Shown: positions 5,608 to 53,513, counted from the stretch's first letter. The stretch is DNA of 64,000 bases from Sphingomonadales bacterium (GCA_038319435.1 JBBQDG010000008.1:11319-75318); one strand, 5' to 3'. Numbers and translations: made by a program. The notes: a model not told the origin generated them from the sequence alone.

Positions 5608-8223
5608 ATGGCCCGCGCCGACGACGTTCCCGCACTCACCCCGATGATGGTGCAATACCACCGGTTGAAGGCCGAGGCGGGGGACGCGTTGCTATTCTAT
5701 CGGATGGGCGATTTCTTCGAGCTCTTCTTCGATGACGCCAAGGCGGCGGCGGCGTGCCTCGACATTGCGCTGACCAAACGTGGCGAGAGCGCGGGCGAGC
5801 CGATCCCGATGTGCGGGGTGCCGGTGCATGCGGCCGATGCCTATCTCGCGCGGTTGATCCGGGGCGGGCACCGGGTGGCCATCGCCGAGCAGATCGAGAG
5901 CCCGGCCGAGGCGCGGAAGGCCCGCGGGGCGAAGGCGCTGGTCGATCGCGCGATCGTGCGGCTGGTCACGCCGGGGACGTTGACCGAGGAGGTGCTCCTC
6001 GACAGTGCGGCGGCGAACTGGCTGGCGGCGGTAGCGCGGGTCCCCGGATCGGGGTCCGGGGCGGGCGAGTGGGGGATTGCGGCAGCGGATATTTCGACCG
6101 GGCGGTTCGAGCTGGTGGCGTGCCAGCCGGGCGAGCTGGCGGCGGAGCTGGCGCGGATCGGACCGGCGGAGACCATATCCGACGGACAGGTTGCGGGAGT
6201 GACGACCGCGCCAGGCAAGGGCGGGTTCGACAGCCTGTCGGGCGAGCGGGCGCTGCTCGCGCGATTCGGGGTGACGACGCTCGATGGGTTCGGGGCGCCG
6301 GGGCGGGCCGAACTGGCGGCGGCCGGCGGATTGCTTGCCTATCTCGACGCGACCCAGAAGGACGCGGTTGCATTCCTTGCCGCGCCGCGGCGGGTGGCGC
6401 GGTCGGCGCATTTGGCGATCGACCCGGCGACGCGTGAAAGCCTCGAAATCTTGCGCAGTTCGAACGGCACGAGCCTGCTTGCGACGGTCGACCGCTGCGT
6501 CACAGCGTGCGGGAAGCGGATGCTTGCTGCTGACTTGTCCGCGCCGTTGACCGAGCGGCGCGCGATCGAAGCGCGGTTGGCGCTGGTTGGATGGTTTCAC
6601 GATGCGAGCCTGCGCCGCGATAGGGTGAGAGGGTCGCTGCGGGCGATGCCGGATCTCGGGCGGGCGCTCGGACGGCTGGTAGCTGGGCGGGGCAGTCCGC
6701 GCGATCTGGCGTCATTGCGCGATGGGCTGGCGGCGGCAATACGGCTTCGTGATGAGCTTGCGGGCGAGGCCGAGCGGCCGGCGTTGCTCGAGGCGACGCT
6801 GCCGGATCTGGGCGGGCATGGTACGCTGATCGACCGGCTGGTGAGCGCGCTGGTCGAATCGCCGCCGCTCGATGCGGCGAAGGGCGGGTATATTGCGGAA
6901 GGCTATGACGAGGCTCTCGACGCGCTTCGGCTAGCGGCATCGGACGGGCGGCGGGCGATTGCGCAACTCGAGGCGCGATATCGTGACATGACCGCGGTTT
7001 CGTCGCTCAAAATCCGCCATAATGCGGTGCTCGGCTATCATGTCGAGGTCGGCGCGCGGCATGCCGATGCGCTGATGGCGGCGGATAGCGGGTTCACGCA
7101 CCGTCAGACGCTGGCCGGGGTGGTGCGGTTCAATTCGCCCGATCTTCACGCCGAGGCGAGCCGGGTGGTCGAGGCGGGGGGTCATGCGCTGGCGGCAGAG
7201 GCGCGGCATTTCGAGGAATTGACCGCGCTCGCGGTGGCCGCCGCGCCTGGGATCGCCGCGACCGCCGATGCGATTGCGCGAATCGACGTTGCCGCGAGCC
7301 ATGCCGAGCGCGCCGCCGAAGGCAACTGGTGTGCGCCTAGCCTGGTCGATGAGCCGTGCCTGGAGATCGACGCGGGGCGGCATCCGGTGGTCGAGGCGGC
7401 GCTTGCGCAGGCCGGCGAGCGGTTCATTGCCAATGACGTCGCAATGGGCCCGCACGACCGATTGTGGCTGATAACCGGGCCCAACATGGGGGGCAAGTCG
7501 ACTTTCCTGCGCCAGGTCGCGCTCGCTGCATTGCTCGCGCAGGCGGGGTCGTTCGTTCCGGCGGCTCGCGCCAAGATCGGGATTGTAGACCGCTTGTTCA
7601 GCCGGGTCGGGGCGGCCGACAATCTAGCGCGCGGGCGGTCGACCTTCATGGTCGAGATGGTCGAGACGGCGGCAATCTTGGCGCAGGCGACGCCTTTTTC
7701 GCTGGTCATCCTCGACGAGATCGGACGGGGCACTTCGACCTATGACGGACTGGCGATCGCCTGGGCGGTGGTCGAGGCGATGCATGACACGGTCCGCGCG
7801 CGCACGCTGTTCGCGACGCATTATCACGAGTTGACGCGGCTGACCGACCGGCTCGACGCGCTGTCGCTCCACCATGTCCGCGCGCGGGAGTGGAAGGGCG
7901 ACCTGGTGTTGCTCCACGAGGTCGCGGGCGGGCCGGCGGACCGGAGTTATGGCATTGCCGTGGCGCGGCTGGCGGGGGTGCCGGCGGGGGTGCTGGCGCG
8001 GGCGAAGAGCGTGCTGGCAAAGCTCGAGGCGGGGCGCGACGCGACTGGGGGAATTGCCGCTGGACTCGATGATTTGCCTCTGTTCGCCGCCGCTGCTGCG
8101 AGCGAGCCGGTGCCCGATCCGCTCGCCACCGCGCTCGATGCGGTCGATCCCGACGCACTGACGCCGCGCGAGGCGCTCGAGGCGCTCTATGCGCTCAAGC
8201 GGATCGCCGGGGAGCAGGCATGA
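5608..8223 (+). CDS. mutS: DNA mismatch repair protein MutS
   Basis: [15 protein letters not shown], Walker [29 protein letters not shown]; start at ATG 5608. Confidence 0.97.
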
Positions 8224-10943
8224 ACGAGGTCGAACAGCGGCGCGCGATCATCGATCGGCGGGCACTAGGGGACGCGCTCGCCGCCTTGCCGAGAGGGTCG
8301 GGACTGCAGCCGGCGGCGACCGAGCTGTTATTGGAGGCACTGCGCAGCGGGCGCGAGGAGATCGCGCGTCGCGTCGTCACCGAGCCCAATCGCGGGCGGG
8401 CGCATGCCTTTGCCTATGCCTTTCTGACCGACCAGATTGTCCGCCTCGCCTATGATTTCGTCACCCAGCGCATCTACCCCAACGCCAACCCGACCACCGC
8501 CGAACGCATCGCTTTGGTCGGGCTTGGCGGTACGGGGCGTGGTGAGATGGCGCCGTTTTCGGACATCGACCTGATGATGGTCGTCCCCCCGGGCCGCGCA
8601 CCATGGTGCGAGCAGGTGGCCGAAGCGCTGCTCTATCTGCTGTGGGATTTGAAGCTGAAGGTCGGCCAGTCAGTGCGAACGCCCGGCGAGGCGACCTCGC
8701 TTGCCAAGGCCGACATGACCATCCGCACATCGCTGCTCGAGGCGCGCTATTTGTGGGGCGACGAGGCCCTGTCGGAGGAGACCAGGCTGCGCTTTCGGCG
8801 AGACGTTGTTACGGGGACAGCGCGCGCGTTCGTGACCGCCAAGCTTGCCGAACGCGACGAGCGCCATGCGCGGATGGGCGACAGCCGCTATGTCGTCGAA
8901 CCCAACGTCAAGGATGGCAAGGGGGGCTTGCGCGATCTCCACACGCTCTACTGGATCGGCAAATACATCCACGGCGTCGACCAGCCAGCCGACTTGGTCG
9001 GGGCGGGATTGCTGACGGCCGAGGAATATCGCCGCTTCGAGCGGGCCGAGCGCTTCTTCTGGTCGGTACGCTGCCACTTGCACCTCGCCGCGGGGCGGGC
9101 TGAGGAGCGGCTCGGGTTCGACCGGCAGCGCGAGATTGCGACGGCGATGCGCTACGCCGACCGGCCGGGGAAGAGCGCGGTCGAGCGTTTCATGCAATTC
9201 TATTTCCTCAACGCCAAGACGGTCGGCGATCTGACCGGGCTGTTCCTGGCGCAGCTCGACGAGCAGATGGCCCGGTCGGGACGTCGGTTCGCGCTGCCGA
9301 CGCTGCGCCGTCGCCCGGCGCGTCTCGGTGGGTTCGTGCTCGATCGAGGGCGCGTTTCGATCCCGAGCGATGATTTTCTTGCCGCCGACCCGGTGCGGCT
9401 GATCGAGCTGTTCGCGGTGGCCGCACGCGAGAAACTCGAGATCCACCCGGCGGCGATGCGCGCGGCGTCACGCGATGCACGGCTGGCCGACACCGTGCGC
9501 GATAACCCTCGCGCCAACGCGCTGTTCCTCGACGTACTGACCGACCGCAATGGGCCCGATACCGTATTGCGCTGGATGAACGAAGCGGGGGTGTTCGGGC
9601 GTTTCGTTCCCGACTTCGGCCGCGTTGTCGCGCAGATGCAGTTCGACATGTACCACCACTATACCGTCGACGAACATTCGATCCGCGCGATCGGGCTGCT
9701 CGCGGCGATTGAGCGCGGCGATCTCGACAAGGAACACCCGCTCTCTACCCGGCTGTTCGACCAGATCGCGTCGCGGCGGACGCTTTATGTGGCAGTACTG
9801 CTTCACGATATCGCCAAGGGGCGGGGGGGGGATCACAGTGAGCTCGGCGCGAAGATTGCCGAGGTTCTGGGGCCGCGCTTCGGGCTGGACGCGGGGGAGA
9901 CCGAGACCGTCGCGTGGCTGGTGCGACATCATCTGCTGATGTCGAACATGGCCTTTCGCCGCGACCTGGCCGACCCCAAGACAATCGAGGACTTTACCCA
10001 TACCGTGCAGAGCCCCGAGCGGCTGCGGCTGCTGCTGATCCTGACCGTGGTCGATATTCGCGCGGTCGGGCCGGGGACGTGGAACGACTGGAAGCGCAGC
10101 TTGCTTACCAACCTGTTCGATCTGGCTGAGGAAGTCCTTCGGCTGGGCCATATGGAGCATGGTCGGGCCGAGCGGGTTACGGCGCGGCAGGACGATCTTG
10201 CCGCCGCGCTCGGGTGGCAAGGTGGTGCGGCGCGAGCGCATATGAAGCGGCTGCCCGACAGCTACTGGATCGCCGAACCGCCCGAATGGCTGATCGCCAA
10301 TGCGCGTCAGATCGCCGAGGCCGAAGCGCGGATCGGCGAGCCGCCGCCAAGCGTGGTTGCCGAGCATGACGCGGGATCAGGCGCGACGCGAATCAGCGTG
10401 TTCGCGCCTGACCGGCCGGGCTTATTCTACCGGATTTCCGCCGCGCTGGCCGAGGGCGGGGCAAGTATCGTCGATGCGCGGATTCACACGACCCGGGACG
10501 GCATGGCACTCGACAATCTGCTGGTCCATGATCGGCAGGGGCGCGGCTATGCCGACAAGCGGCTGCGCGCGCGGCTGGCCAAGGCGGTGGCAGCGGCGAT
10601 TTCAGGCGAGCCCCCTGCCCTTCGCGCCGAGCCCATATCCGACAGCGAGACTTTCCGTATCGCCCCGCGCGTGCTGGTCGCCGACAAGGCGTCGAGCCGG
10701 ACGACGGTGGTCGAGGTCAATGCGCGCGACCGGCCGGCACTGCTGGCGCGGCTGACCGGCGCGATCTTCGCGCAGGGGCTGCAGCTGCATTCGGCGCACA
10801 TCGCGACCTATGGCGAGCGCGCGGTGGACGTCTTTTACGTAACCAACTCGGCCGGGCGGAAGCTTGGCGCCGAGGAGGTGACGGCATTGCGGGCAGCGTT
10901 GCTCGACATCCTCGCCGAACCGCCAGCCGCCAAGGCCGCCTGA
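8220..10943 (+). CDS. glnD: [protein-PII] uridylyltransferase
   Basis: [41 protein letters not shown] motif, two ACT domains; ATGA overlap with mutS. Confidence 0.97.
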
Positions 10944-10952
10944 CCCCAAGAG

Positions 10953-10981
10953 AAAGGCCCCGCGGTTTCCCGCGAGGCCCT
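10953..10981 (-). terminator. intrinsic terminator of the TonB-dependent receptor gene
   Basis: minus strand AGGGCCTCGCGG-GAAA-CCGCGGGGCCTTT. Confidence 0.7.
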
Positions 10982-11003
10982 CCCGTTAATGACAATCCGA
11001 AGC

Positions 11004-13889
11004 TTAGCCGCGCTCGCCCTTCGATGGCGGCGGCGGTGGCGGCGGTGGCGGAGGCGGCGGCACCGGGCAGGCCGCATCGAGCGCGATCACGCTGCCGTCG
11101 GCGCAGGTCTGCGTCGCAGGCGGCGGGGGCGGAGGTGGTGGCGGCGGCGGGGGTGGCGGCGGTGCAACCTTGGGCGCCGCGAAGTTCGCCCGGAGCGTCA
11201 GGCCGAAGGTGCGCGGCTCAGCCAGGAAGGCCGAGAAAATCTGGCGCCCGCCCGGGAAGGCCGGATCAACGAATGGTGCGCCGCTCCTGCCCGCCTGGAA
11301 CGGCGAGTTGAAGGCAACCTGCGCATAATTCTTGTTGAACAAATTCTGCGCCCACACTTCGATCGACCAGCGATTGTCGGGACCGCGCAGGCCGACGCGG
11401 CCATTGACCAGCGTGTAGCTTTCCTGACCCTTTTGCGGGAACAGATCGGACCCCGTAATGTAATGGCCGCTATAGCGCGCATCGACATAGAATAGCGCCG
11501 AGAGGCCACTGCCACCGATGCGCGGCGTGTAGCCGATCGATCCGGTGGCGACCGTGCGCGGGGCATTCGACAGTTCCTGGCCCGGCAGGACGCGCAATGC
11601 CGGGTTGAGCGGGGCACCGGTGTCCCGACCGACCAGATTGTTGCGATACTTGGTCGTGGCCAAGGTCAAGCCGGCGGTGAGGCTGAGGTCCCGCGTCGGA
11701 CGGAACGACGATTCGAGCTCGACCCCCTGACTGCGCACGCCATATTGCACGTCGCTGCTGTTGCAGGCTCCCGTGGCGCTTGACTGGTCGCGGTCGGCGC
11801 CGGCCAGATCGGTTTTGCAGCTGTTGACGTTCTGGACGATGAACACCGTTCCATCGAACGTATTGAGCTGGAAGTTCTTGAACTCCTGGCGGAACAGGGA
11901 AACGTTGAAGGTTATGCCGTGCGCGGTGAACTTTCCGCCGAGTTCATAGGCCCGGACGGTTTCCGGATCGAACTGCAGGTTGGCCGCCAGCGCTTGCGCT
12001 CCGCCGAGACTGGCAAATGTCCGGATCGGCGATTTCAGCGCGGACTTGTCGAGGTTGAAGCCGCCCGCCTTGTAGCCGCTCGAGACGCTGCCATAGAGTA
12101 GCAAATGGTCGGTTGGCTTGTACGACAGCACGCCGGTACCGGTGAACCGATGCTCCTTGCGCTTGCCATTGAGCGTTGCGCCATTCAATTCCGAAGTGCT
12201 GTTGCCCTGACAGCTGAGCGCGAGAATGCCACCCGCCGTCGCGGCGAGCGCCGGGACGGCCAGGAACGGCGTCAGCGCGGCCTGGTTCTGGGCGCAGGCC
12301 ACGTTGTCGTTGCCGAATGACGCATTGAGCCTCTTTCGCTCGTTGGTGTAGCGCACGCCGATCGTCGCATCGAGGCGATCGGTGATGTGGAGGATGTTGT
12401 GCGTGAAGACCGCGAAGTTGCGGCTGTTCTGCTTGAACAGATCGCCGGTGCTGCCGCGATCGCTGATGCCATCGAGCCGGTCGATCGCGGCGTAGAAGGC
12501 CGGTGACGCCCCACCAAATGCTGCCGGACGCGCGGCCAGGCAGCCCGCCGCAGCGGGGTTATAAAGCGGTGCCAGGGCACTGCCCGAGACTAGGCGGCAG
12601 GTCGCGAACCGCCCGTACTGGTTGCCGAAGCGCAGCTCATCTTCGACCGTGAGATTTTCGTTGGCGTAATAAGCGCCGACCAGCCAGTCGAGCTTCTTGT
12701 TGAACGCCGAGCCCTGCAGTCGCAGCTCCTGGGTGAAGGTCTTGAACTGGCGGAAGCTTTTGCCGTCATTGGGGCGATAGAGGATGTCGACCGTGCTGTA
12801 ATCACCGTCGCCCTGCTGGTTCGCCTTGTAGCTGCGGTAGGCGGTGATCGAGGTCAGCTTGGCGCCGCCAAAGTCATAACCGAGCTCGCCCGACACACCG
12901 CCGTCGGTGGTCTTGGCGCTGAAGCTGCGGCCGCGCGACACGGAAATGTCGCGGTTGTAGGGATTGTTGAACGCCGACAGATTCTGACCAAGATCGCGAA
13001 TCACGCCAATGATATTATTCTGCGCCGGATCGTTCAGCCCGCCGATGTTGCTGTTGATATTGTTGTTGAGATAAACCGCGCCGCAGCATTTTTCGATGCG
13101 ATGGGTGTAATCGCCGATCAGGCGGAAACTGAACCGGTCATCGGGTTGATAGAGCAGCTGGCCGCGGACAAAGTAGCGGTTGCGGTCATTGACGTCGGTG
13201 CCGTTGTTGCGGTCGTGGTAGAAGCCGTCGCGCTTGACGTAGACTCCGTCGAGCCGGAACGCGAGGCTGTCCGACAGCGGGCCGGTGAGCCCGGCCGCAA
13301 ACCGGCGTAGATTATAATTGCCGATCGTCGCTTCGCCCGAACCGCCGAAGGTGAACGACGGCTTCTTCGAAAAGATCGAGATCAGGCCGGCCGACGCATT
13401 GCGGCCGAACAGCGTGCCCTGCGGCCCGCGCAGGACCTCGATCCGGTCGAGTTCGCCCAGCTCGCTAAGGCCAATGCCCGAGCGTGAACGGTAGACGCCA
13501 TCGATGAACACCGCGACTGAGCTTTCAAGCCCGGGATTGTCGCCGACGGTGCCGATGCCGCGAATTCGCGCCGAGCCATTGGCTTCGGTGCCGGTCGAGG
13601 ACACCAGCAGCGACGGGGCGAGCTGGTTCAGCGAGCGAATGTCGGTGGCGCCGGAATTCTTGAGCGAATCGCCCGAGACGGCGGTGACGGAAATTGGCAC
13701 GTTCTGCAGCGCTTGGCGGCGACCCTGAGCGGTGACGATGATTTCGCCGGTGTCGACAGCCGGCGCAACCGCAGCGGCTGCGGTCGGGCTCTGGGGGGAG
13801 GTAGCCGTCTGGCCGGTGTCCTGCGCCAGGGCGGGCGTGGCGGTGAGGGCGGTGAGTCCGGCCGATGCCAGCAGAAGCGACTTGTTCAT
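11004..13889 (-). CDS. TonB-dependent receptor with Pro-rich C-terminal extension
   Basis: signal peptide MNKSLLLASAGLTALTATPALA, TonB box EIIVTAQ, plug motif RIEVLRGPQGTLFGRNA, last barrel strand PRTFGLTLRANF followed by a 58-aa tail; GGAGG SD before ATG 13889. Confidence 0.93.
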   Translation of the reverse strand: MNKSLLLASAGLTALTATPALAQDTGQTATSPQSPTAAAAVAPAVDTGEIIVTAQGRRQALQNVPISVTAVSGDSLKNSGATDIRSLNQLAPSLLVSSTGTEANGSARIRGIGTVGDNPGLESSVAVFIDGVYRSRSGIGLSELGELDRIEVLRGPQGTLFGRNASAGLISIFSKKPSFTFGGSGEATIGNYNLRRFAAGLTGPLSDSLAFRLDGVYVKRDGFYHDRNNGTDVNDRNRYFVRGQLLYQPDDRFSFRLIGDYTHRIEKCCGAVYLNNNINSNIGGLNDPAQNNIIGVIRDLGQNLSAFNNPYNRDISVSRGRSFSAKTTDGGVSGELGYDFGGAKLTSITAYRSYKANQQGDGDYSTVDILYRPNDGKSFRQFKTFTQELRLQGSAFNKKLDWLVGAYYANENLTVEDELRFGNQYGRFATCRLVSGSALAPLYNPAAAGCLAARPAAFGGASPAFYAAIDRLDGISDRGSTGDLFKQNSRNFAVFTHNILHITDRLDATIGVRYTNERKRLNASFGNDNVACAQNQAALTPFLAVPALAATAGGILALSCQGNSTSELNGATLNGKRKEHRFTGTGVLSYKPTDHLLLYGSVSSGYKAGGFNLDKSALKSPIRTFASLGGAQALAANLQFDPETVRAYELGGKFTAHGITFNVSLFRQEFKNFQLNTFDGTVFIVQNVNSCKTDLAGADRDQSSATGACNSSDVQYGVRSQGVELESSFRPTRDLSLTAGLTLATTKYRNNLVGRDTGAPLNPALRVLPGQELSNAPRTVATGSIGYTPRIGGSGLSALFYVDARYSGHYITGSDLFPQKGQESYTLVNGRVGLRGPDNRWSIEVWAQNLFNKNYAQVAFNSPFQAGRSGAPFVDPAFPGGRQIFSAFLAEPRTFGLTLRANFAAPKVAPPPPPPPPPPPPPPPATQTCADGSVIALDAACPVPPPPPPPPPPPPSKGERG

Positions 13890-47915: not shown

Positions 47916-48443
47916 ATGGCCCCCATGTTGGTGCGAACCCTGCTCGCTGCAATGGCGCTGGCGCTGGCCGTGGCGGGACGTTCCGGTCCGGCCGAGGCGC
48001 AGTGCCGGCTGTGCACCACTCCAACCACCGCCCCGGAGACCGACGTTGCCACCCCCGTAGCGCTCCAGGTCGAGGCCAATCTCGACTTCGACCGCATCGT
48101 CCTGTCGGGCAGCGGGGATGGCTCTGCGACGCTCGACCCCGACGGGTCGCGGCGCACGAGCGGCACGATCGTCTCGCTGGGCGGGCGAGCCATGGTCGGC
48201 AGCATCATGGTGCGCGGCGAGCCCGGCCGCACGGTGCTGGTCACCCTGCCCAAGCGAATCTCACTCCACGGTCTGACCGGGACCGATATCGTCATCGACG
48301 GCGTGACCAGCGACTTGCCCGGCGCACCGCGCATCGGCTCTGACGGGACGCTGGCTTTCCGCATCGGCGGCGCGCTTCACGTCTCGGGCGAAGTCGACGG
48401 CGAGTATCGCGGCGATTTCACCGTCGACGTCGACTATCTGTGA
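47916..48443 (+). CDS. DUF4402-like secreted pilin-like protein A (CxxC at mature N-terminus)
   Basis: signal peptide ending AEA, then QCRLC, NLDF, C-terminal GEYRGDFTVDVDYL. Confidence 0.8.
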   Translation: MAPMLVRTLLAAMALALAVAGRSGPAEAQCRLCTTPTTAPETDVATPVALQVEANLDFDRIVLSGSGDGSATLDPDGSRRTSGTIVSLGGRAMVGSIMVRGEPGRTVLVTLPKRISLHGLTGTDIVIDGVTSDLPGAPRIGSDGTLAFRIGGALHVSGEVDGEYRGDFTVDVDYL

Positions 48444-48603
48444 CAAGCCGGCAGAAGAAGCTCCATTCCGGATTAATCCTTAATTGCACGGTAACCCTGC
48501 TGGGGAGGAAAGCGGAAAGCCGACGCGGTTAATGACCTCTCCCACGGATGCCCGGACAATTTCCGGACAGGCGCCACCTTTCGACACCAAGTGGGGAATC
48601 AGG

Positions 48604-49119
48604 ATGCTCAATTCTCGGTATGTGATGCTCGTCGCCGGTGCGGCGATGCTTTCCGCTTCGCCGGCGCTCGCCGGTCCCGGTTCGCCGACCGCTCAGTCCG
48701 CGGTTGCGACAACCTATGCTCAAATCGTCGATCCGCTGACGATCACGAAGAATGTGGACATCAGCTTCGGCACGCTCGTCAAGTCGCCGGCGCTGACCGC
48801 CACCGCGGTGACCGTTACGCTCGACGGCAGCAACACGGTCGCCTGCCCGGCGGCGTTGCTGTGCAGCGGAGTGCCGACTTCGGCCAAGTTTACTGTTACG
48901 GGCACAACCGGCCAAACCGTCTATCTGACAACGGTCGCGTCGTTGATGAACGGCCCGTCAGGTGCAAAGCTGACATTCACTCCGATTGCGCCGACGACAC
49001 TTGTGGCCGCCAGCGGTCCGGGCACCTCGTTCACATTCGGCGGATCGATCCCCGTCGCGTCGGACACGCCCGCGGGTATCTACAACGGCGATGTGACGGT
49101 TACCGCCGACTATAACTGA
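48604..49119 (+). CDS. DUF4402-like secreted pilin-like protein B
   Basis: signal peptide ending ALA, AQIVDPL, DISFG, Cys pair, C-terminal GIYNGDVTVTADYN. Confidence 0.85.
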   Translation: MLNSRYVMLVAGAAMLSASPALAGPGSPTAQSAVATTYAQIVDPLTITKNVDISFGTLVKSPALTATAVTVTLDGSNTVACPAALLCSGVPTSAKFTVTGTTGQTVYLTTVASLMNGPSGAKLTFTPIAPTTLVAASGPGTSFTFGGSIPVASDTPAGIYNGDVTVTADYN

Positions 49120-49144
49120 TCGACCGGAAACCCTGGTTCGGGTT

Positions 49145-49174
49145 GGGGGCTGCCGGAAACGGCGGCCCCTTTTT
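49145..49174 (+). terminator. intrinsic terminator after pilin-like B
   Basis: GGGGCTGCCG-GAAA-CGGCGGCCCC-TTTTTT. Confidence 0.9.
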
Positions 49175-49308
49175 TCATGTCCGATCCGGAGCTTTCCTAA
49201 ACACCGTGGTAACCATCATCGACAGCGAAGCCGCAACGCCTGCTGGTTAATGAGGTGCTGACCACGCCGCATCGTGCCGGTGAGGACCAGACCAGTGGGA
49301 AGTAATTC

Positions 49309-49818
49309 ATGACCAAATTTGCTCGATTGCTGACGGCCGCTGCCGTCGCCACCCTCTTCGCCAGCCCGGCGCTAGCCGTGCCGGTCGGTGCCACCACCGC
49401 CGCCACCGCCAAGGCGCAGATCGTCAAGCCGCTGGTGCTGACCGCGAAGACCAATATGGATTTCGGCACCATCCTGCTCACCAGCCTCGTTGCCGGACCG
49501 ACCTACACCGTCACCCTGACCAGCGGCGGCGCGTTGACTTGCACGAGCGGGCTGACCTGCTCGGCCACCGGCATCCCCGCGACCTTCAACGTGCAGGGCT
49601 CGAATAACCAGCTCGTGAAAATCTACACAGCGGCGAGCAGCTTCACGAACGGTACGACGACGCTTTCGATTACGCCGAGTGCCGCCGGCTCGCTGACGCT
49701 CACGAACTCGGGATCGCCGGGGCTCGATTTCAACGTCGGCGCCTCATTCCCGATCACCAGCGCCACCACTGAAGGTGTCTACACCGGCAACCTCAACGTG
49801 ACGGTCGATTACAACTAA
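49309..49818 (+). CDS. DUF4402-like secreted pilin-like protein C
   Basis: signal peptide ending ALA, AQIVKPL, NMDFG, Cys pair, C-terminal GVYTGNLNVTVDYN. Confidence 0.85.
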   Translation: MTKFARLLTAAAVATLFASPALAVPVGATTAATAKAQIVKPLVLTAKTNMDFGTILLTSLVAGPTYTVTLTSGGALTCTSGLTCSATGIPATFNVQGSNNQLVKIYTAASSFTNGTTTLSITPSAAGSLTLTNSGSPGLDFNVGASFPITSATTEGVYTGNLNVTVDYN

Positions 49819-49845
49819 TCGCTCGCTCAATCGAGTGGACCAGGA

Positions 49846-49874
49846 GGGGTCGCCGGCAACGGCGGCCCTTTTTG
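49846..49874 (+). terminator. intrinsic terminator after pilin-like C
   Basis: GGGGTCGCCG-GCAA-CGGCGGCCCT-TTTTT. Confidence 0.88.
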
Positions 49875-49961
49875 CTGTCCCGGCAATGAGTGCCGCGATG
49901 GTTAGCAGTTAAATAACCATTTTGGTCGAAAAGCATCTCCAGATTGGATGGAGATTTGCTC

Positions 49962-50786
49962 GTGACCCTATTCCCGCGTTTCGCTCGCCTTGCGCTCGCC
50001 GCCCCGCTCGCCGTCGCCGCGCTGGCGACCCCTGCAACCGCCGGGATCGGTGACCTGCTTGTCGCCCCGACCCGCATTGTTCTCAACGGCAGTCGCGGCA
50101 CGCAGATCATTCTCAATAATATCGGCGACGACGTCGCGACCTATCGCGTCAGCCTTGAGCTGCGCCGGATGAACCCCGACGGATCATTGAGCGACGTTGC
50201 CGCGCCAAACGCCGCGGAGAAGGCGGCCGAGGACATGATCCTTTATGCCCCGCGCAAGGTCACGCTGCCGCCCAACCAGCCGCAGACGATCAACATTTCC
50301 GCGCGCGCCCCGGCCGGATTGGCCGACGGCGAATATCGCGTCCACCTGCTGTTTCGCGCCATTCCCAAGCCGCGCCCTGTTACGGCCGCCCAATCAGAGG
50401 CAAAGGGTATCAGCTTCTCGCTGACCCCGGTCTATGGCGTGACCATCCCGGTCATCGTCCGCCTAGGCTCGCTTTCAGCTAAAGCCGGGATCGCCAATGT
50501 CCACATGGCTTCCGAAGGCGGCAAGCCCGCAGTGGCGATGGACCTGACCCGCACCGGCAGCCGCTCGACCTATGGCGAAGTGCGCGTGATCAAGGCCGGG
50601 ATCAAGGACCCGATCGCGATCCAGCGCGGCATCGCGGTCTACACCGAAGTCGGCCAGCGCAGCGTCTCGATCCCGGTCAGCGACAAGCTCGCGTCCGCCG
50701 CCAACGGCCCGGTGACCGTGCAATATCTAGAAACGACAGAGGCCGGCACCCAGGTGATCGCCCAGACCAGCGCGGTGCTGCGCTAG
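49962..50786 (+). CDS. PapD-like periplasmic pilus chaperone
   Basis: signal peptide, LLVAPTRIVL, YAPRKVTLPPNQPQTI, GEYRVHLLF, IPVIVR; GTG start with GGAG SD. Confidence 0.8.
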   Translation: MTLFPRFARLALAAPLAVAALATPATAGIGDLLVAPTRIVLNGSRGTQIILNNIGDDVATYRVSLELRRMNPDGSLSDVAAPNAAEKAAEDMILYAPRKVTLPPNQPQTINISARAPAGLADGEYRVHLLFRAIPKPRPVTAAQSEAKGISFSLTPVYGVTIPVIVRLGSLSAKAGIANVHMASEGGKPAVAMDLTRTGSRSTYGEVRVIKAGIKDPIAIQRGIAVYTEVGQRSVSIPVSDKLASAANGPVTVQYLETTEAGTQVIAQTSAVLR

Positions 50787-50813
50787 GCAGTCAGGGGGTC
50801 GCGGGGGACGCGT

Positions 50814-53513
50814 TTGCGCCTGGCCAAAAGCCTGGGTCGCGGCCTCGTCGCCGCGCTGACACTGCCCGCGCTCGCCGCGGGCAGCGTTGCGACGGGTGCC
50901 GCCTCGGCTCCGGTCGCGCCGGCGTGGAGCGCCGACCCTGACGATCAGTTCGTGCTTGAGGTCAATATCCGCCAGTTGCGCCTCGGCGACGGGGTCCGCG
51001 CCTATGGCACGCCCGAGGGCACGTGCGTCAATTTCGGCGATTTCCTGACGACGCTCGATGTACCGATGCGAATCGACGTCGGTGCCAAGCGCGCGACCGG
51101 CTGGGCGTTCAAGGAAAGCAACAAGATTGCCATCGATCTTGGTACTGGACGGGCCTCTTGGGGCTCTGGCCAGAGCGAGATGATGACGAGCGGCACGGTC
51201 CGCCTGACCCCTGATGGCTGGTGCGTCGAGACCGGCGCGCTGGCGCGCTGGTTCGGAATTGGCGTCAAGCCGTCACTCGCCGGATCGATGCTCATGCTGA
51301 CGTCGGACGCCAAGCTGCCGGTTGAACTGGCAAAGGAGCGCCACGACCGTGCCGCGCGGCTGAGCCACGCCAGTCTGAGCCTTGGCCAATTGCCGCAGGT
51401 CCGCCTGCCCTACCGATTGTGGCGCGCCCCGGCGCTCGATTTTGTTGTTAGCGGCGGCGTGGCCTACAGCGCGAGAACCGGCGCGCGGGTCGATCGCCAC
51501 GCCGCGTTGCTTGCAGCGGGCGAACTCGCCAGCCTGTCCTACGAAGCGCAGGCGACGACCGATGCGCGCGGCCGCCCCGACAGCCTGCGGCTGCGCGCCT
51601 ACAAGTCCGATCCCGACGGCAATCTTCTCGGTCCGCTGCGCGCGACCCATTTCGGGGTCGGCGATGTCGCCGGATTCGACAGCCGGTTGATCGGCGTCGG
51701 ACGGGTCGGGCGCGGGGTCGAGGTGACCAATCGTCCGCTGTTCACGCCAACCGCGTTCGATCGCACCCATCTCGAAGGCGATTTGCCCGCCGGGTGGGAG
51801 GCCGAACTCTATCGCAACGGCGAGTTGCTCGGCTTCGCCCCCGCCACCGGCGACCAGCGCTACCGCTTCGACGATGTTCAACTGCGCTACGGCGCCAACG
51901 AGCTCGAGGTGCGGCTCTACGGCCCGCAGGGGCAACTGCGGTCTCGCCACGAAACGGTCGATGTCGCCAATGCCGCGGCTCCCCCGGGGACGACCTGGTA
52001 CTGGGCCGGGGTCAACCAGCCCGCGCGAGAATTAATCGCTTTGCGAGCGCGACCGCCCGACAATACCAACTTGCCCAAACTCCAGGCGAGCGTCGCGCTG
52101 GAGCATGGGCTCGACAAACGCACTTCCATTGGGCTCGCCGCGACCATGCAGGTGGTCGACGACGAGCGATTGACCTATGTCGAAGGCACCGTGCGCCGCT
52201 CGATCGGCAGCGCGCTGGTTGAAGTGGCGGGGGTCCGCGATAGCCACGGCGGAAAAGCCGCGCGTGCCTCATTGCTCGGCAAGATCGGCCCGCTCGACAT
52301 TTCGGCCGAAGCGCTCGCCGCGAGCAATTTCCGGCTGAACGGGATCCGCGAACGCGCGATTCGGCAAGCGCAACTCTCGCTTGGCGCGCCATTGAAGATC
52401 GGGCGGAGCATCTTTCCGGCCAGCGCGTCGCTGCGCATCATCGATCGGCCCGGCGGCGCGCGTTCGCTTGAGGCGGCGGGGCGATTGTCGGCCAATTTCG
52501 GCCGATTCAACCTCGGCACCGACATTCGATGGCGACGCAACAGCGACCGGAGCGGACTGGTCGCTGCTCGCACCGACGACCTCGAGGCGACGCTGATCGG
52601 ATCGGGCCATATCGGCCGGATACGTTTGCGAGGAAGCAGCACGTTCGACTTGAAACCCTCGGCGCGGCTCAAGCTCGCCGAGCTTTCGGCTTATTGGTCG
52701 GCATCCGAAAAGGCCGATTGGGACGCCGGGCTCGGCTATGACAATGAAGCACGACGGGCGCGCGCGCGGCTGTCCTACATTCGCCGGTTCAACAGCATGG
52801 CGCTGGCGCTGACCGGTGAGGGGGCGAGCGATGGCTCGCTTGCGTTCGGCTTCAACCTGAACTTCTCGCTTGATCCGGCGCGGGGTTTCAAACCTTCCCG
52901 GCTACCGATGGCCAGCGCCGGCCTGATCCGCGCCCACGTTTATCGTGATCTCAACGACAATGGCGCGCGCGATCCGGGCGAGCCCGATGAACCGGGCGCG
53001 CTGATCACCACTGGCACGCGTGTCGCGCTGCAGCCGACCGACAAGCGTGGCACATCGACCGTCGCCGGACTGACGATCTACCAGCCGGTTGCGGTCGGAA
53101 TCGATCAATCGACGCTGAGCGACCCCAACCTTACCCCGCGCAAGGCGCTGCAGGTCGTCACTCCGCGCGCCGGCATCGCCGCCGAGGTCGAGATCGGGCT
53201 GGTCGGATCGGGCAGCATCGAGGGCGTGCTGATCAAGGACGGCGGCGGCGGCTTCGAAGGCGTCGAACTTGAACTGGTGGGGGCCGACGGCAAGCTCGCG
53301 AGCACAGCGCAGAGTGATTTCGACGGCTATTTCCTGTTCGATAAAATCCCATATGGACATTATAATGTGCGCATTGCTCTTTCGTCGGCGAAGGCAATCC
53401 ATGCTGCGATTGATGCAAGTGCGACGGTCAGCGGCGACAAGCCGACCGTGCGGCTGGGAGCCATCCGCGCGGTTCAGTCGCTGGAAGTCGCGTCGAACGG
53501 TGGCTCGAATTAA
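50814..53513 (+). CDS. divergent fimbrial usher-like outer-membrane protein with C-terminal SdrD/carboxypeptidase-like Ig domains
   Basis: 899 aa, signal peptide, plug-like AELYRNG...YRFDDVQLRYGANELEVRLYGPQG, long amphipathic beta region, D.N.NG..D.GE and SDFDGYFLF repeats. Confidence 0.65.
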   Translation: MRLAKSLGRGLVAALTLPALAAGSVATGAASAPVAPAWSADPDDQFVLEVNIRQLRLGDGVRAYGTPEGTCVNFGDFLTTLDVPMRIDVGAKRATGWAFKESNKIAIDLGTGRASWGSGQSEMMTSGTVRLTPDGWCVETGALARWFGIGVKPSLAGSMLMLTSDAKLPVELAKERHDRAARLSHASLSLGQLPQVRLPYRLWRAPALDFVVSGGVAYSARTGARVDRHAALLAAGELASLSYEAQATTDARGRPDSLRLRAYKSDPDGNLLGPLRATHFGVGDVAGFDSRLIGVGRVGRGVEVTNRPLFTPTAFDRTHLEGDLPAGWEAELYRNGELLGFAPATGDQRYRFDDVQLRYGANELEVRLYGPQGQLRSRHETVDVANAAAPPGTTWYWAGVNQPARELIALRARPPDNTNLPKLQASVALEHGLDKRTSIGLAATMQVVDDERLTYVEGTVRRSIGSALVEVAGVRDSHGGKAARASLLGKIGPLDISAEALAASNFRLNGIRERAIRQAQLSLGAPLKIGRSIFPASASLRIIDRPGGARSLEAAGRLSANFGRFNLGTDIRWRRNSDRSGLVAARTDDLEATLIGSGHIGRIRLRGSSTFDLKPSARLKLAELSAYWSASEKADWDAGLGYDNEARRARARLSYIRRFNSMALALTGEGASDGSLAFGFNLNFSLDPARGFKPSRLPMASAGLIRAHVYRDLNDNGARDPGEPDEPGALITTGTRVALQPTDKRGTSTVAGLTIYQPVAVGIDQSTLSDPNLTPRKALQVVTPRAGIAAEVEIGLVGSGSIEGVLIKDGGGGFEGVELELVGADGKLASTAQSDFDGYFLFDKIPYGHYNVRIALSSAKAIHAAIDASATVSGDKPTVRLGAIRAVQSLEVASNGGSN

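What the first reader, a model, noticed from the sequence alone, without database searches (positions are those of the whole stretch)
47916..53513. Uncharacterised chaperone-usher-like fimbrial system: three DUF4402-type pilins, PapD-like chaperone, divergent usher
Five co-oriented secreted proteins. Three 150-170 aa beta-rich subunits share an N-terminal alternating strand (VATTYAQIV, ATAKAQIV), an (N/D)x(D/S)F(G/D) motif and the C-terminal G-x-Y-x-G...V-x-V/A-D-Y-x strand with penultimate Tyr. These are the hallmarks of donor-strand-complemented pilins. They are followed by a chaperone with a PapD-N-like P..V.L.P.Q.Q.I motif and an 899-aa OM protein with a usher-plug-like segment. No classical two-domain adhesin gene is present. 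Subunits B and C have their own strong terminators, as expected for highly expressed major pilins. To my knowledge this cluster type is annotated only as DUFs and has no demonstrated fibre or function. It would be a non-canonical CU clade in a lineage known mainly for Tad pili.
Basis: partly seen in the sequence, partly recalled or inferred. Interest (0 to 1): 0.82.

Follow-up and report, generated by a model that had tools for sequence, protein, structure and literature searches.

The report
Divergent chaperone-usher fibre locus, DUF4402 subunits
This five-gene cluster in a Sphingomicrobium-like soil bacterium is a real but very diverged version of the well-known chaperone-usher machinery that builds hair-like surface fibres; standard annotation misses its outer-membrane pore, and the open-access papers I could search do not describe it.

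Summary
Window 47916-53513 carries five co-oriented genes for secreted proteins. Three are DUF4402 subunits (A, B, C; Pfam E 1e-23 to 5e-16). One is a 280-aa periplasmic protein (D) and one an 899-aa outer-membrane protein (E). Pfam, NCBIfam and PDB sequence searches do not recognise D or E. E folds with high confidence (pLDDT 90.6), and its 18 best PDB matches are all FimD/PapC ushers (E 1e-29 to 1e-14). Its profile matches sigma and classical ushers (hhalign 98.4% and 97.8%). The N-domain of D matches PapD_N chaperones (94%). The model of subunit C hits almost only chaperone-usher pilins, though weakly. DUF4402 is a remote relative of SCPU pilins. Gene order is kept in 80 Sphingomonadales loci and in two other classes. 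Usher and DUF4402 occur in exactly the same 7 of 81 genomes. dN/dS is 0.08-0.29. The most likely product is a donor-strand-linked surface fibre. A would be a strand-less tip subunit, and B and C separately transcribed major pilins. This is a class-depth lineage nearest the archaic (sigma) class, so a new variant of a known kind. Earlier agents in this scan have reported the same kind of locus many times. The fold of D's C-terminal domain and the donor-strand pairing were not tested.

The parts
47916..48443 (+). Subunit A (175 aa), DUF4402. Signal peptide is residues 1-28. The mature N-terminus reads QCRLC (48000-48014). It lacks the donor-strand-like motif, so it is the candidate tip (initiator) subunit.
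   Evidence: Pfam DUF4402 E 1.5e-23. An alignment of about 50 orthologues shows a conserved QCRLC followed by a variable Pro/Thr linker, with no A-x-A-x-A-x-I motif and no Cys pair. dN/dS is 0.29 against L006.
48490..48535 (+). Conserved 46-bp DNA element GGTAACC-N30-GGTTAATGA, about 68 nt before the start of B. Probably a promoter or regulator site.
   Evidence: It is one of only two copies in the 2.42-Mb genome. It is conserved before B/C-type genes in 27 of 80 related loci. No RNA structure or Rfam family was found.
48604..49119 (+). Subunit B (171 aa), DUF4402. Signal peptide is residues 1-23. It has the N-terminal alternating motif AVATTYAQIVDP, a Cys pair and a C-terminal GIYNGDVTVTADYN. 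Candidate major pilin.
   Evidence: Pfam DUF4402 E 1.7e-16; alignment A4.
49145..49176 (+). Intrinsic terminator after B.
   Evidence: Eleven-pair GC-rich stem plus a T run; -28.4 kcal/mol, z -3.69.
49208..49253 (+). Second copy of the 46-bp element GGTAACC-N30-GGTTAATGA, about 55 nt before the start of C.
49309..49818 (+). Subunit C (169 aa), DUF4402. Signal peptide is residues 1-23. The putative donor strand TAATAKAQIVKP is residues 28-41. The Ig-like domain is residues 43-168. Candidate major pilin.
   Evidence: Pfam DUF4402 E 4.9e-16, residues 44-168. The AF2 model has pLDDT 89.7, is all-beta, and its first strand starts at residue 43. The Foldseek top hits are CfaB, CsuA/B, Caf1, FimF and FimG (best E 0.019, probability 0.98). 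hhalign to SCPU gives 96.5%, or 83.1% without signal peptides.
49846..49875 (+). Intrinsic terminator after C, upstream of the chaperone and usher genes.
   Evidence: Sequence; -32.1 kcal/mol, z -3.76.
49944..50786 (+). Periplasmic chaperone D (280 aa from the TTG; likely start GTG 49962). The N-terminal domain is PapD_N-like. The C-terminal half (about residues 150-280) is unassigned.
   Evidence: No Pfam, NCBIfam or PDB sequence hit. hhalign against PapD_N-positive Sphingomonadales chaperones gives 94.3%, E 1e-7, or 89.7% without the signal peptide. Against E. coli K-12 chaperones it gives 48%. Homologues are named molecular chaperone or PapD. dN/dS is 0.08.
50814..53513 (+). Outer-membrane usher E (899 aa), with these domains by model residue number. 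Signal peptide is about 1-32. The N-terminal domain is 45-163 (50946-51302). Barrel strands 1-6 are 203-305. The plug is 317-383 (51762-51962). Barrel strands 7-24 are 394-687. C-terminal domain 1 is 703-785. C-terminal domain 2 is 788-885 (53175-53468; SdrD_B/CarboxypepD_reg-like).
   Evidence: AF2 gives pLDDT 90.6 and pTM 0.79. Foldseek ranks 1-18 are all FimD or PapC, E 9e-30 to 9e-14. hhalign gives 98.4% to sigma ushers and 97.8% to classical ushers. Pfam matches only the C-terminal domain and not PF00577. dN/dS is 0.10.

Best explanation
The cluster encodes a complete, deeply diverged chaperone-usher assembly line.

**Shown here**
- E has the usher architecture: an N-terminal domain, a barrel that I count as 24 strands with a plug inserted after strand 6, and two C-terminal beta-sandwich domains.
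- The N-terminal domain of D is homologous to PapD_N.
- A, B and C are DUF4402 proteins with a chaperone-usher-pilin-like beta fold. They are remotely related to the SCPU pilins of the archaic class.
- The genes are co-inherited and under purifying selection.

**Inferred mechanism**
- All five proteins are exported by Sec.
- D caps each subunit in the periplasm by lending a strand to its incomplete Ig fold. It would hold the conserved C-terminus (G-x-Y-x-G...V-x-V-D-Y-x).
- At the usher, the N-terminal alternating segment of the next B or C subunit (A-x-A-x-A-x-I-x-x-P, which lies outside the folded domain) replaces the chaperone strand by donor-strand exchange. The growing polymer is threaded through the E barrel.
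- A has the acceptor domain but no donor-like segment. It is therefore most likely incorporated first and sits at the distal tip.
- B and C are tandem duplicates, each with its own conserved upstream element and terminator. They would be made in excess over D and E and form the shaft, either mixed or as alternatives.
- The two orphan DUF4402 genes elsewhere in the genome are probably further substrates of the single usher.
- The product is most likely a thin adhesive or biofilm fibre.
For: **Usher.** The AF2 model has pLDDT 90.6. Its 18 best PDB matches are all FimD or PapC, with E 9e-30 to 9e-14, and the next class of hit is at 1e-10 or worse. hhalign gives 98.4% (E 7e-15, 536 columns) to PF00577-positive ushers of Sphingomonadales, and 97.8% to nine E. 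coli K-12 ushers.

**Chaperone.** hhalign gives 94.3% to PapD_N-positive chaperones. A PapD_N-positive chaperone (L094) also hits D directly, E 1e-6.

**Subunits.** All three match DUF4402. The model of C has pLDDT 89.7. Nearly all of its top 30 Foldseek hits are chaperone-usher pilins from the alpha, sigma, gamma and pi classes. hhalign to SCPU gives 96.5%, or 83.1% without signal peptides, in end-to-end register.

**Genomic context.** The order A-(B/C)n-D-E is kept in 80 Sphingomonadales loci down to 39% usher identity. It is also kept in two genomes of other classes of the phylum, with GC 49% and 44%. The usher family and DUF4402 occur in exactly the same 7 of 81 order-level genomes. The genome has one D and one E but five DUF4402 genes. 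dN/dS is 0.08 for D, 0.10 for E and 0.29 for A.

**Expression signals.** Terminators follow B and C.
Against: - No multimer model could be run, so neither the donor-strand groove nor the pairing of the N-terminal segment was seen.
- In the monomer model of C, residues 24-42 are confidently placed but are not a beta strand.
- Foldseek E-values for the subunit are weak (0.019 at best).
- D carries Asn at position 117. At least 90% of its family has an Arg there, which aligns with the invariant Arg of sigma chaperones.
- The roles assigned to A, B and C rest on motifs alone.
Confidence: 0.72

Rival explanations
1. The same chaperone-usher machine makes a non-pilus polymer. This would be a capsule-like or coat-like layer of DUF4402 chains, comparable to the F1 (Caf1) capsule or the Myxococcus protein U spore coat, rather than discrete adhesive fibres.
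For: All subunits are single-domain and there is no two-domain adhesin. Caf1 chains are among the top structural matches of C. The nearest sequence relatives are SCPU proteins, whose name comes from a spore coat protein. A preprint lists capsule and spore coat as atypical chaperone-usher products (PMC13734109).
Against: A conserved, distinct A-type subunit without a donor motif suggests an ordered tip-to-base fibre. Nothing here distinguishes thin fibres from an amorphous layer.
Confidence: 0.15
2. D and E export DUF4402 proteins as monomers or small oligomers that stay on the surface or are released. There would be no donor-strand polymerisation.
For: Donor-strand exchange was not demonstrated. 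The N-terminal segment is not modelled as a strand.
Against: The conserved alternating N-terminal segment lies outside the folded domain in B/C-type subunits across 40 sequences. The pilin-like fold and the usher and chaperone homology all point to polymerisation. I know of no usher that exports only monomers; this last point rests on my own knowledge.
Confidence: 0.06
3. The resemblance is superficial. E would be an unrelated large porin with a Cna-B/transthyretin-like tail, D an unrelated periplasmic Ig-like protein, and the cluster would not be a chaperone-usher system.
For: Pfam, NCBIfam and PDB sequence searches give no usher or chaperone hit. Public names for E are 'carboxypeptidase regulatory-like'.
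Against: The Foldseek usher hits cover 750-920 columns at E 1e-29, against 1e-6 for other barrels. hhalign gives 98.4% and 94.3%. Co-occurrence with DUF4402 is perfect, 7 of 7 in 81 genomes.
Confidence: 0.03

Closest known systems
Archaic (sigma) chaperone-usher pili: Acinetobacter Csu, Pseudomonas CupE, Myxococcus protein U system (SCPU subunits)
   Same: This is the nearest class by profile for all three parts: usher 98.4%, chaperone N-domain 94.3%, subunits 83-96%. The two share a small set of about 160-aa subunits with an (L/V)xFG motif near the N-terminus and G-x-Y-x-(D/G)-T/x...V-T-V-x-Y at the C-terminus. Most members of the D family keep an Arg aligned with the sigma chaperones' invariant strand-F Arg. 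That Arg is Arg89 of CsuC, the carboxylate anchor described in PMC4654587.
   Different: - Pfam Usher, PapD_N and SCPU do not match E, D or A-C.
- The usher profile score is 133 to sigma, whereas sigma to classical scores 328.
- The subunits end one residue after the aromatic (..DYN), not on it (..TVTY).
- The Cys pair sits elsewhere.
- There is no CsuE-like two-domain tip adhesin.
- D in this window has Asn at the Arg position.
- The usher's C-terminal domains match SdrD_B/CarboxypepD_reg rather than PapC_C.
Classical type 1 and P pili (FimC/FimD, PapD/PapC)
   Same: These are the best structural matches of the E model, over the whole length including the N-terminal domain, plug and C-terminal domains. 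The usher profile match is 97.8%. As in classical pilins, the Tyr is penultimate and one residue follows it. The invariant R44 in APTRIVL aligns with the GATRVIY of FimC. That is the Arg8 position as I recall it, and the alignment has only 48% probability.
   Different: Sequence identity is 12-14%. The chaperone match is weak (48%). The subunits do not match Pfam Fimbrial. There is no lectin-type adhesin.
Alternative class (E. coli common pilus EcpA-E; CS1/CFA-I type)
   Same: It is another class whose usher escapes PF00577: EcpC is not among the 11 PF00577 matches in E. coli K-12. CfaB is the top Foldseek hit of subunit C. There is a faint Pfam TcfC hit on the plug of E.
   Different: There is no detectable profile relation between E and EcpC (5.8%) or between DUF4402 and EcpA (8.9%). 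D against EcpB/EcpE gives 37%.
Caf1 (F1 antigen) type polyadhesins, gamma-3 class
   Same: The polymers are made of single-domain subunits with no separate adhesin. Caf1 chains are among the top structural matches of C.
   Different: The Caf1 system has a classical-type chaperone and usher that Pfam recognises. That point is from my own knowledge and was not fetched or tested here.

Membership tests
Chaperone-usher pathway (general) | Outer-membrane usher with a 24-strand barrel, a plug inserted between strands 6 and 7, a periplasmic N-terminal domain and two C-terminal domains | tested here: met
   The AF2 model has pLDDT 90.6. I counted the DSSP strands as 6 + plug (317-383) + 18, with an N-terminal domain at 45-163 and C-terminal domains at 703-885. 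Foldseek ranks 1-18 are all FimD or PapC, E down to 9e-30. hhalign gives 98.4% and 97.8%. The strand count was made from the secondary-structure string, not from coordinates.
Chaperone-usher pathway (general) | Periplasmic two-domain PapD-like chaperone | tested here: inconclusive
   The N-domain matches PapD_N-positive chaperones at 94.3% (89.7% without the signal peptide). The C-terminal half gives 0.4-0.9%.
Chaperone-usher pathway (general) | Subunits with an Ig-like fold lacking the last strand, plus an N-terminal donor strand | tested here: inconclusive
   The model of C is an all-beta domain starting at residue 43. The conserved alternating segment at residues 28-41 lies outside it. The Foldseek top hits are chaperone-usher pilins, but with E 0.019 or worse. 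The groove and the strand exchange were not modelled.
Chaperone-usher pathway (general) | Subunit, chaperone and usher genes clustered and co-inherited | tested here: met
   Gene order is conserved in 80 loci and in two other classes. Co-occurrence is 7 of 7 among 81 genomes.
Chaperone-usher pathway (general) | A surface fibre or polymer that depends on the usher | not testable with these tools
   This needs EM, shearing and proteomics in a cultured carrier.
Archaic (sigma) clade | Usher recognised as PF00577 and grouping with CsuD/CupE5 | tested here: not met
   E has no PF00577 hit at E up to 1. The profile score to sigma ushers is 133, against 328 between sigma and classical. No tree was built.
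Archaic (sigma) clade | Subunits of the SCPU family (PF05229) | tested here: not met
   A, B and C match DUF4402 only. Homology to SCPU is remote only. One SCPU protein has a faint DUF4402 hit, E 0.038.
Archaic/alternative (non-classical) chaperones | Invariant Arg in strand F of domain 1 that anchors the subunit carboxylate (CsuC Arg89; PMC4654587) | tested here: not met
   By the hhalign register, the D family consensus has Arg at this column (Q-x-I-R-I). The window's D, L006, L009 and about 20 close clusters have Asn or Thr instead (TINI).
Classical clades (beta, gamma, kappa, pi) | PapD_N/PapD_C chaperone, PF00577 usher and PF00419 Fimbrial subunits | tested here: not met
   None of these Pfam families is matched. 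The own genome has no PapD_N match.
Pfam DUF4402 (PF14352) | Score above the curated cut-off of 25.2 bits | tested here: met
   A scores 84.3 bits, B 61.5 and C 60.0. There are two further genes in the genome.

The most novel reading that the evidence does not exclude
The DUF4402 systems would be a distinct, class-rank lineage of the chaperone-usher pathway, a 'seventh clade' beside alpha, beta, gamma, kappa, pi and sigma, with a hybrid subunit-holding mode. The subunits would be archaic-type, but with a classical-type C-terminus (penultimate Tyr) and a classical-type Arg in chaperone strand A1 (the invariant R44). This would explain why the non-classical strand-F Arg can be lost in this window's sub-lineage. 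The fibre would start from a single-domain tip subunit carrying an N-terminal CxxC. Two alternative shaft pilins would be switched through a dedicated 46-bp control element found nowhere else in the genome.
Probability: 0.25. Interest if true: 0.6.

Novelty: new variant of a known kind. Interest (0 to 1): 0.48.

Why it matters
Chaperone-usher pili are the best understood bacterial adhesins, but the pathway's classification rests on ushers that standard models can detect.

This locus belongs to a large family. It has 1470 clusters at 50% identity with E at or below 1e-30. It is found in Sphingomonadales and in other classes, and earlier notes of this scan report it in other phyla. Pfam Usher and PapD_N miss the family, and its subunits are still labelled 'domain of unknown function'.

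Recognising the family gives DUF4402 a testable function. It extends the known depth of the pathway. It also offers cultured, non-pathogenic carriers in which to ask how a chaperone holds subunits when the usual anchor residues differ. These include Sphingomonas edaphi, S. daechungensis, Sphingomicrobium lutaoense and Parasphingorhabdus flavimaris.

The predicted function, a surface fibre for adhesion or biofilm, is ordinary. This scan has already reported the same kind of locus many times, so this instance adds detail rather than a new kind of system.

Tried and rejected
- **Direct sequence searches.** Pfam and NCBIfam on D and E gave no usher or chaperone family. PDB sequence searches with single proteins and with profiles of E, D and the subunits gave nothing relevant.
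- **C-terminal half of D.** hhalign against sigma and classical chaperones gave no signal.
- **Alternative class.** E against EcpC and DUF4402 against EcpA gave no signal, so a link to the alternative class is not supported.
- **RNA reading of the 46-bp element.** RNAalifold found no structure or covariation and Rfam found no family. It is therefore treated as a DNA site.
- **Regulon of the element.** A genome-wide search found only the two copies, and none before A, D or the orphan subunit genes.
- **A as a lipoprotein.** Rejected, because the residue before the Cys is Gln, which does not fit a lipobox (lipobox rule from my own knowledge).
- **Recently acquired island.** Rejected. The same flanks (PBP1A and MsrB upstream, zinc-ribbon protein and FtsE downstream) occur in most related loci, and the GC content is like the surroundings.

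Full report
**What is there.** The window lies in a 2.42-Mb, 54-contig genome. Its closest public relatives are Sphingomicrobium and Sphingomonas MAGs. Positions 47916-53513 hold five co-oriented ORFs:
- A, 175 aa
- B, 171 aa from ATG 48604
- C, 169 aa
- D, 280 aa, with GTG 49962 behind a GGAG as the likely start
- E, 899 aa

All five begin with Sec-type signal peptides, read directly from the sequence. A, B and C each match Pfam DUF4402 well above the cut-off. GC-rich hairpins with U tracts follow B (49145-49176) and C (49846-49875), with z about -3.7 against shuffles.

**The large protein is an usher.** Sequence methods do not show this. Pfam finds only an SdrD_B/CarboxypepD_reg-like stretch at residues 801-858. 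NCBIfam finds nothing. Neither the protein nor an 85-sequence profile hits any usher in the PDB. This explains the public names 'carboxypeptidase regulatory-like domain-containing protein' and 'MSCRAMM family protein'.

I built an alignment of 85 diverse full-length relatives (23-58% identity) from an exhaustive search. That search found 3861 clusters at E up to 1e-3 and 1470 at E up to 1e-30. With this alignment AlphaFold2 gave pLDDT 90.6 and pTM 0.79. From the secondary-structure string I read:
- an N-terminal domain at 45-163
- six long strands at 203-305
- a six-strand sandwich at 317-383
- eighteen more long strands at 394-687
- two beta-sandwich domains at 703-885

That is the 24-strand barrel with a plug after strand 6 known from PapC and FimD. 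The known topology is from my own knowledge, and the count was made on the string, not on coordinates.

Foldseek against the PDB ranks only FimD and PapC chains in places 1-18 (E 9e-30 to 9e-14, 520-947 aligned columns). The next hits match the C-terminal domain alone (1e-10), and other barrels appear at about 1e-6. Profile comparison agrees. Against five PF00577-positive ushers taken from sigma-type loci of Sphingomonadales, hhalign gives 98.4% (E 7e-15, 536 columns). Against nine E. coli K-12 ushers it gives 97.8%.

**The 280-aa protein is a chaperone, at least in its N-terminal half.** Pfam PapD_N does not match it, and the whole genome has no PapD_N match. A 30-sequence profile of D orthologues aligns to seven PapD_N-positive chaperones at 94.3% (E 1e-7), or 89.7% when the signal peptide is removed. 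One PapD_N-positive chaperone (L094) also hits D directly at E 1e-6. The aligned blocks are these:
- strand A1: LLVAPTRIVL
- the PPNQPQxI(R)I strand
- the E-Y-R-V-x-L-L-F-R-A-I-P strand

Against E. coli K-12 chaperones the match is only 48%. The C-terminal half of D, about residues 150-280, matches nothing.

**The subunits are pilin-like.** A 40-sequence alignment of B/C-type subunits shows, in order:
- a signal peptide
- a conserved alternating segment A-x-A-x-A-x-I-x-x-P, which lies outside the Pfam domain
- a D-L-D-F-G turn
- two nearly invariant Cys
- an invariant G-x-Y ... V-x-V-D-Y plus one residue at the very C-terminus

The AF2 model of C (pLDDT 89.7) is an all-beta domain that starts at residue 43. 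Residues 24-42 are placed with pLDDT 81-92 but are not a strand. Foldseek E-values are weak (best 0.019, probability 0.98). Even so, nearly all of the first 30 hits out of 350,000 chains are chaperone-usher pilins: CfaB, CsuA/B, Caf1, FimF, FimG, FimA and PapA.

Against seven SCPU subunits from the sigma loci, hhalign gives 96.5%. It drops to 83.1% (E 9e-6) once signal peptides are removed. The alignment is end to end and puts the xFG motif and the C-terminal G-x-Y...V-T-V-x-Y in register. Donor-strand complementation is therefore a well-grounded inference and not an observation.

**The parts belong together.** The order A-(B/C)1-2-D-E recurs in all 80 related Sphingomonadales loci fetched, wherever the flank is long enough, down to 39% usher identity. 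Most of these loci share the same chromosomal neighbours, so the cluster is old in this lineage and not a recent island. Two genomes from other classes of the phylum (GC 49% and 44%) have the same layout, with five and two small subunits ending in ..Y-x.

In an even sample of 81 genomes of the order, the usher family and DUF4402 are each present in seven genomes, and they are the same seven. By my arithmetic the chance of that is about 1 in 3.5e9. Those genomes often carry extra DUF4402 genes away from the usher. This genome has two such genes, at C11:18575-19234 and C44:2464-3003, but only one D and one E. Against the closest relative, dN/dS is 0.08 for D, 0.10 for E and 0.29 for A.

**Where it sits among known classes.** hhalign scores:

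| Comparison | Score or probability |
|---|---|
| Usher: this family vs sigma | 133 |
| Usher: this family vs classical | 119 |
| Usher: sigma vs classical | 328 |
| Chaperone: D vs sigma | 94% |
| Chaperone: D vs classical | 48% |
| Chaperone: sigma vs classical | 98% |
| Usher: EcpC vs this family | 5.8% |
| Usher: EcpC vs sigma | 13.7% |
| Usher: EcpC vs classical | 63.7% |

The EcpC comparisons used a single sequence, so they have less power. PF00577 also misses EcpC in E. coli K-12. The fair statement is that the DUF4402 systems are one more lineage at class depth, nearest the archaic class. They are not something outside the pathway. These scores are not a phylogeny.

**Details that differ from the archaic model (PMC4654587).**
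- CsuA/B ends on its aromatic residue, whereas DUF4402 subunits end one residue later, as classical pilins do.
- The Arg that marks non-classical chaperones (CsuC Arg89) aligns with an Arg kept in at least 90% of the D family. In this window, in L006, in L009 and in about 20 close clusters it is Asn or Thr.
- R44 is invariant. In the low-confidence alignment it falls on the T-R of FimC strand A1, which I recall as the classical Arg8 anchor. This suggests a mixed anchoring mode, but it is only a lead.

**Roles of the three subunits (inferred).** A-type proteins are the most conserved. After the signal peptide they begin with Q-C-R-L-C and then a variable Pro/Thr linker. They lack both the alternating segment and the Cys pair. 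A subunit that can accept a strand but has none to donate fits the distal tip.

B and C are 35-40% identical tandem duplicates. Each is preceded by GGTAACC-N30-GGTTAATGA and followed by a similar terminator. This 46-bp element occurs only twice in the genome, even when relaxed to TAACC-N29-33-GGTTAA. It recurs before B/C-type genes in 27 of 80 related loci, with TAACC and GGTTAA invariant. It shows no RNA structure and no Rfam match, so it is probably a promoter or regulator site. Terminators between the pilin genes and D-E would give an excess of subunits over machinery, as in other pilus operons (the comparison is from my own knowledge).

**Novelty.** No paper in the searchable library mentions DUF4402 or PF14352. 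Searches for chaperone-usher systems in Sphingomonas, or for new clades, found nothing on this family. A 2026 preprint notes that many non-canonical archaic operons are known only from bioinformatics (PMC13734109).

Within this scan the same kind of locus has been reported in at least 181 genomes, including another Sphingomicrobium, with the same reading. The motor-linked variants described in some notes are not seen here: the flanks encode PBP1A, MsrB, a zinc-ribbon protein and FtsE.

**Limits.** There is no multimer modelling and no fold for D. There is no usher tree with all six clades. The phylum-level count (3 full-length matches in 251 genomes) scored only three candidates per genome.

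**Verdict.** This is a real and complete chaperone-usher system of a deeply diverged, undescribed lineage. It is a new variant of a known kind with an ordinary predicted function.

Noticed in passing
window 48490-48535 and 49208-49253: A 46-bp element, GGTAACC-N30-GGTTAATGA, lies 55-70 nt before the start codons of B and C. These are the only two copies in the 2.42-Mb genome. It is conserved before B/C-type subunit genes in 27 of 80 related loci, with TAACC and GGTTAA invariant and a conserved middle GAGCAAAGCCGTAAGC. It has no RNA structure or covariation and no Rfam match. It is probably a promoter or regulator site, but no regulator gene is adjacent.
   Followed up: partly
window 48000-48014 (subunit A residues 29-33): The mature N-terminus of A-type subunits starts with a conserved Q-C-R-L-C (CxxC) in nearly all of about 50 orthologues, followed by a variable Pro/Thr linker. 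It does not fit a lipobox. Its purpose is unknown; it could form a disulfide, bind a metal or cross-link.
   Followed up: partly
window 50292-50294 (chaperone D residue 117): D has Asn where at least 90% of its family has Arg. By profile alignment that column matches the invariant strand-F Arg of sigma chaperones, the carboxylate anchor Arg89 of CsuC. The Asn/Thr variant is shared by L006, L009 and about 20 close clusters, and D is still under strong purifying selection (dN/dS 0.08).
   Followed up: partly
G000:C11:18575-19234 and G000:C44:2464-3003 (outside the window): Two orphan DUF4402 genes lie elsewhere in the genome with no chaperone or usher nearby. They lack the Cys pair of B and C and lack the 46-bp upstream element. 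Similar orphans occur in other usher-carrying genomes, for example G057:C4 and G051:C9.
   Followed up: partly
L101 (G023:C1:1070000-1085000), genes at 6480-11943: A Sphingomonadaceae locus has borderline Pfam matches to PapD_N (E 1.6e-7), Usher (E 1.4e-5, below the cut-off) and SCPU/Fimbrial (E 3e-4 to 4e-3). Its chaperone hits D directly (E 1e-6). It looks like another divergent chaperone-usher lineage, intermediate between sigma and the DUF4402 type.
   Followed up: no
L006:5340-6144: The closest relative (90% usher identity) has room for only one B/C-type gene between A and D. The ORF found there is 101 aa and reads on past the ..VDYN end. Either the gene is disrupted or the MAG has an assembly error. 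The number of B/C copies varies from 1 to 2 among close relatives.
   Followed up: no
L122:3808-6333 (E. coli K-12 ecpC): Pfam Usher (PF00577) finds 11 places in E. coli K-12 MG1655 but not the annotated usher gene ecpC. Absence of a PF00577 match is therefore not by itself evidence against an usher.
   Followed up: yes
P0094: A 59%-identical homologue of E is deposited as 'MSCRAMM family protein [Bacillota bacterium]'. For an outer-membrane usher of Sphingomonadales type, this is probably a binning error and a naming error.
   Followed up: no
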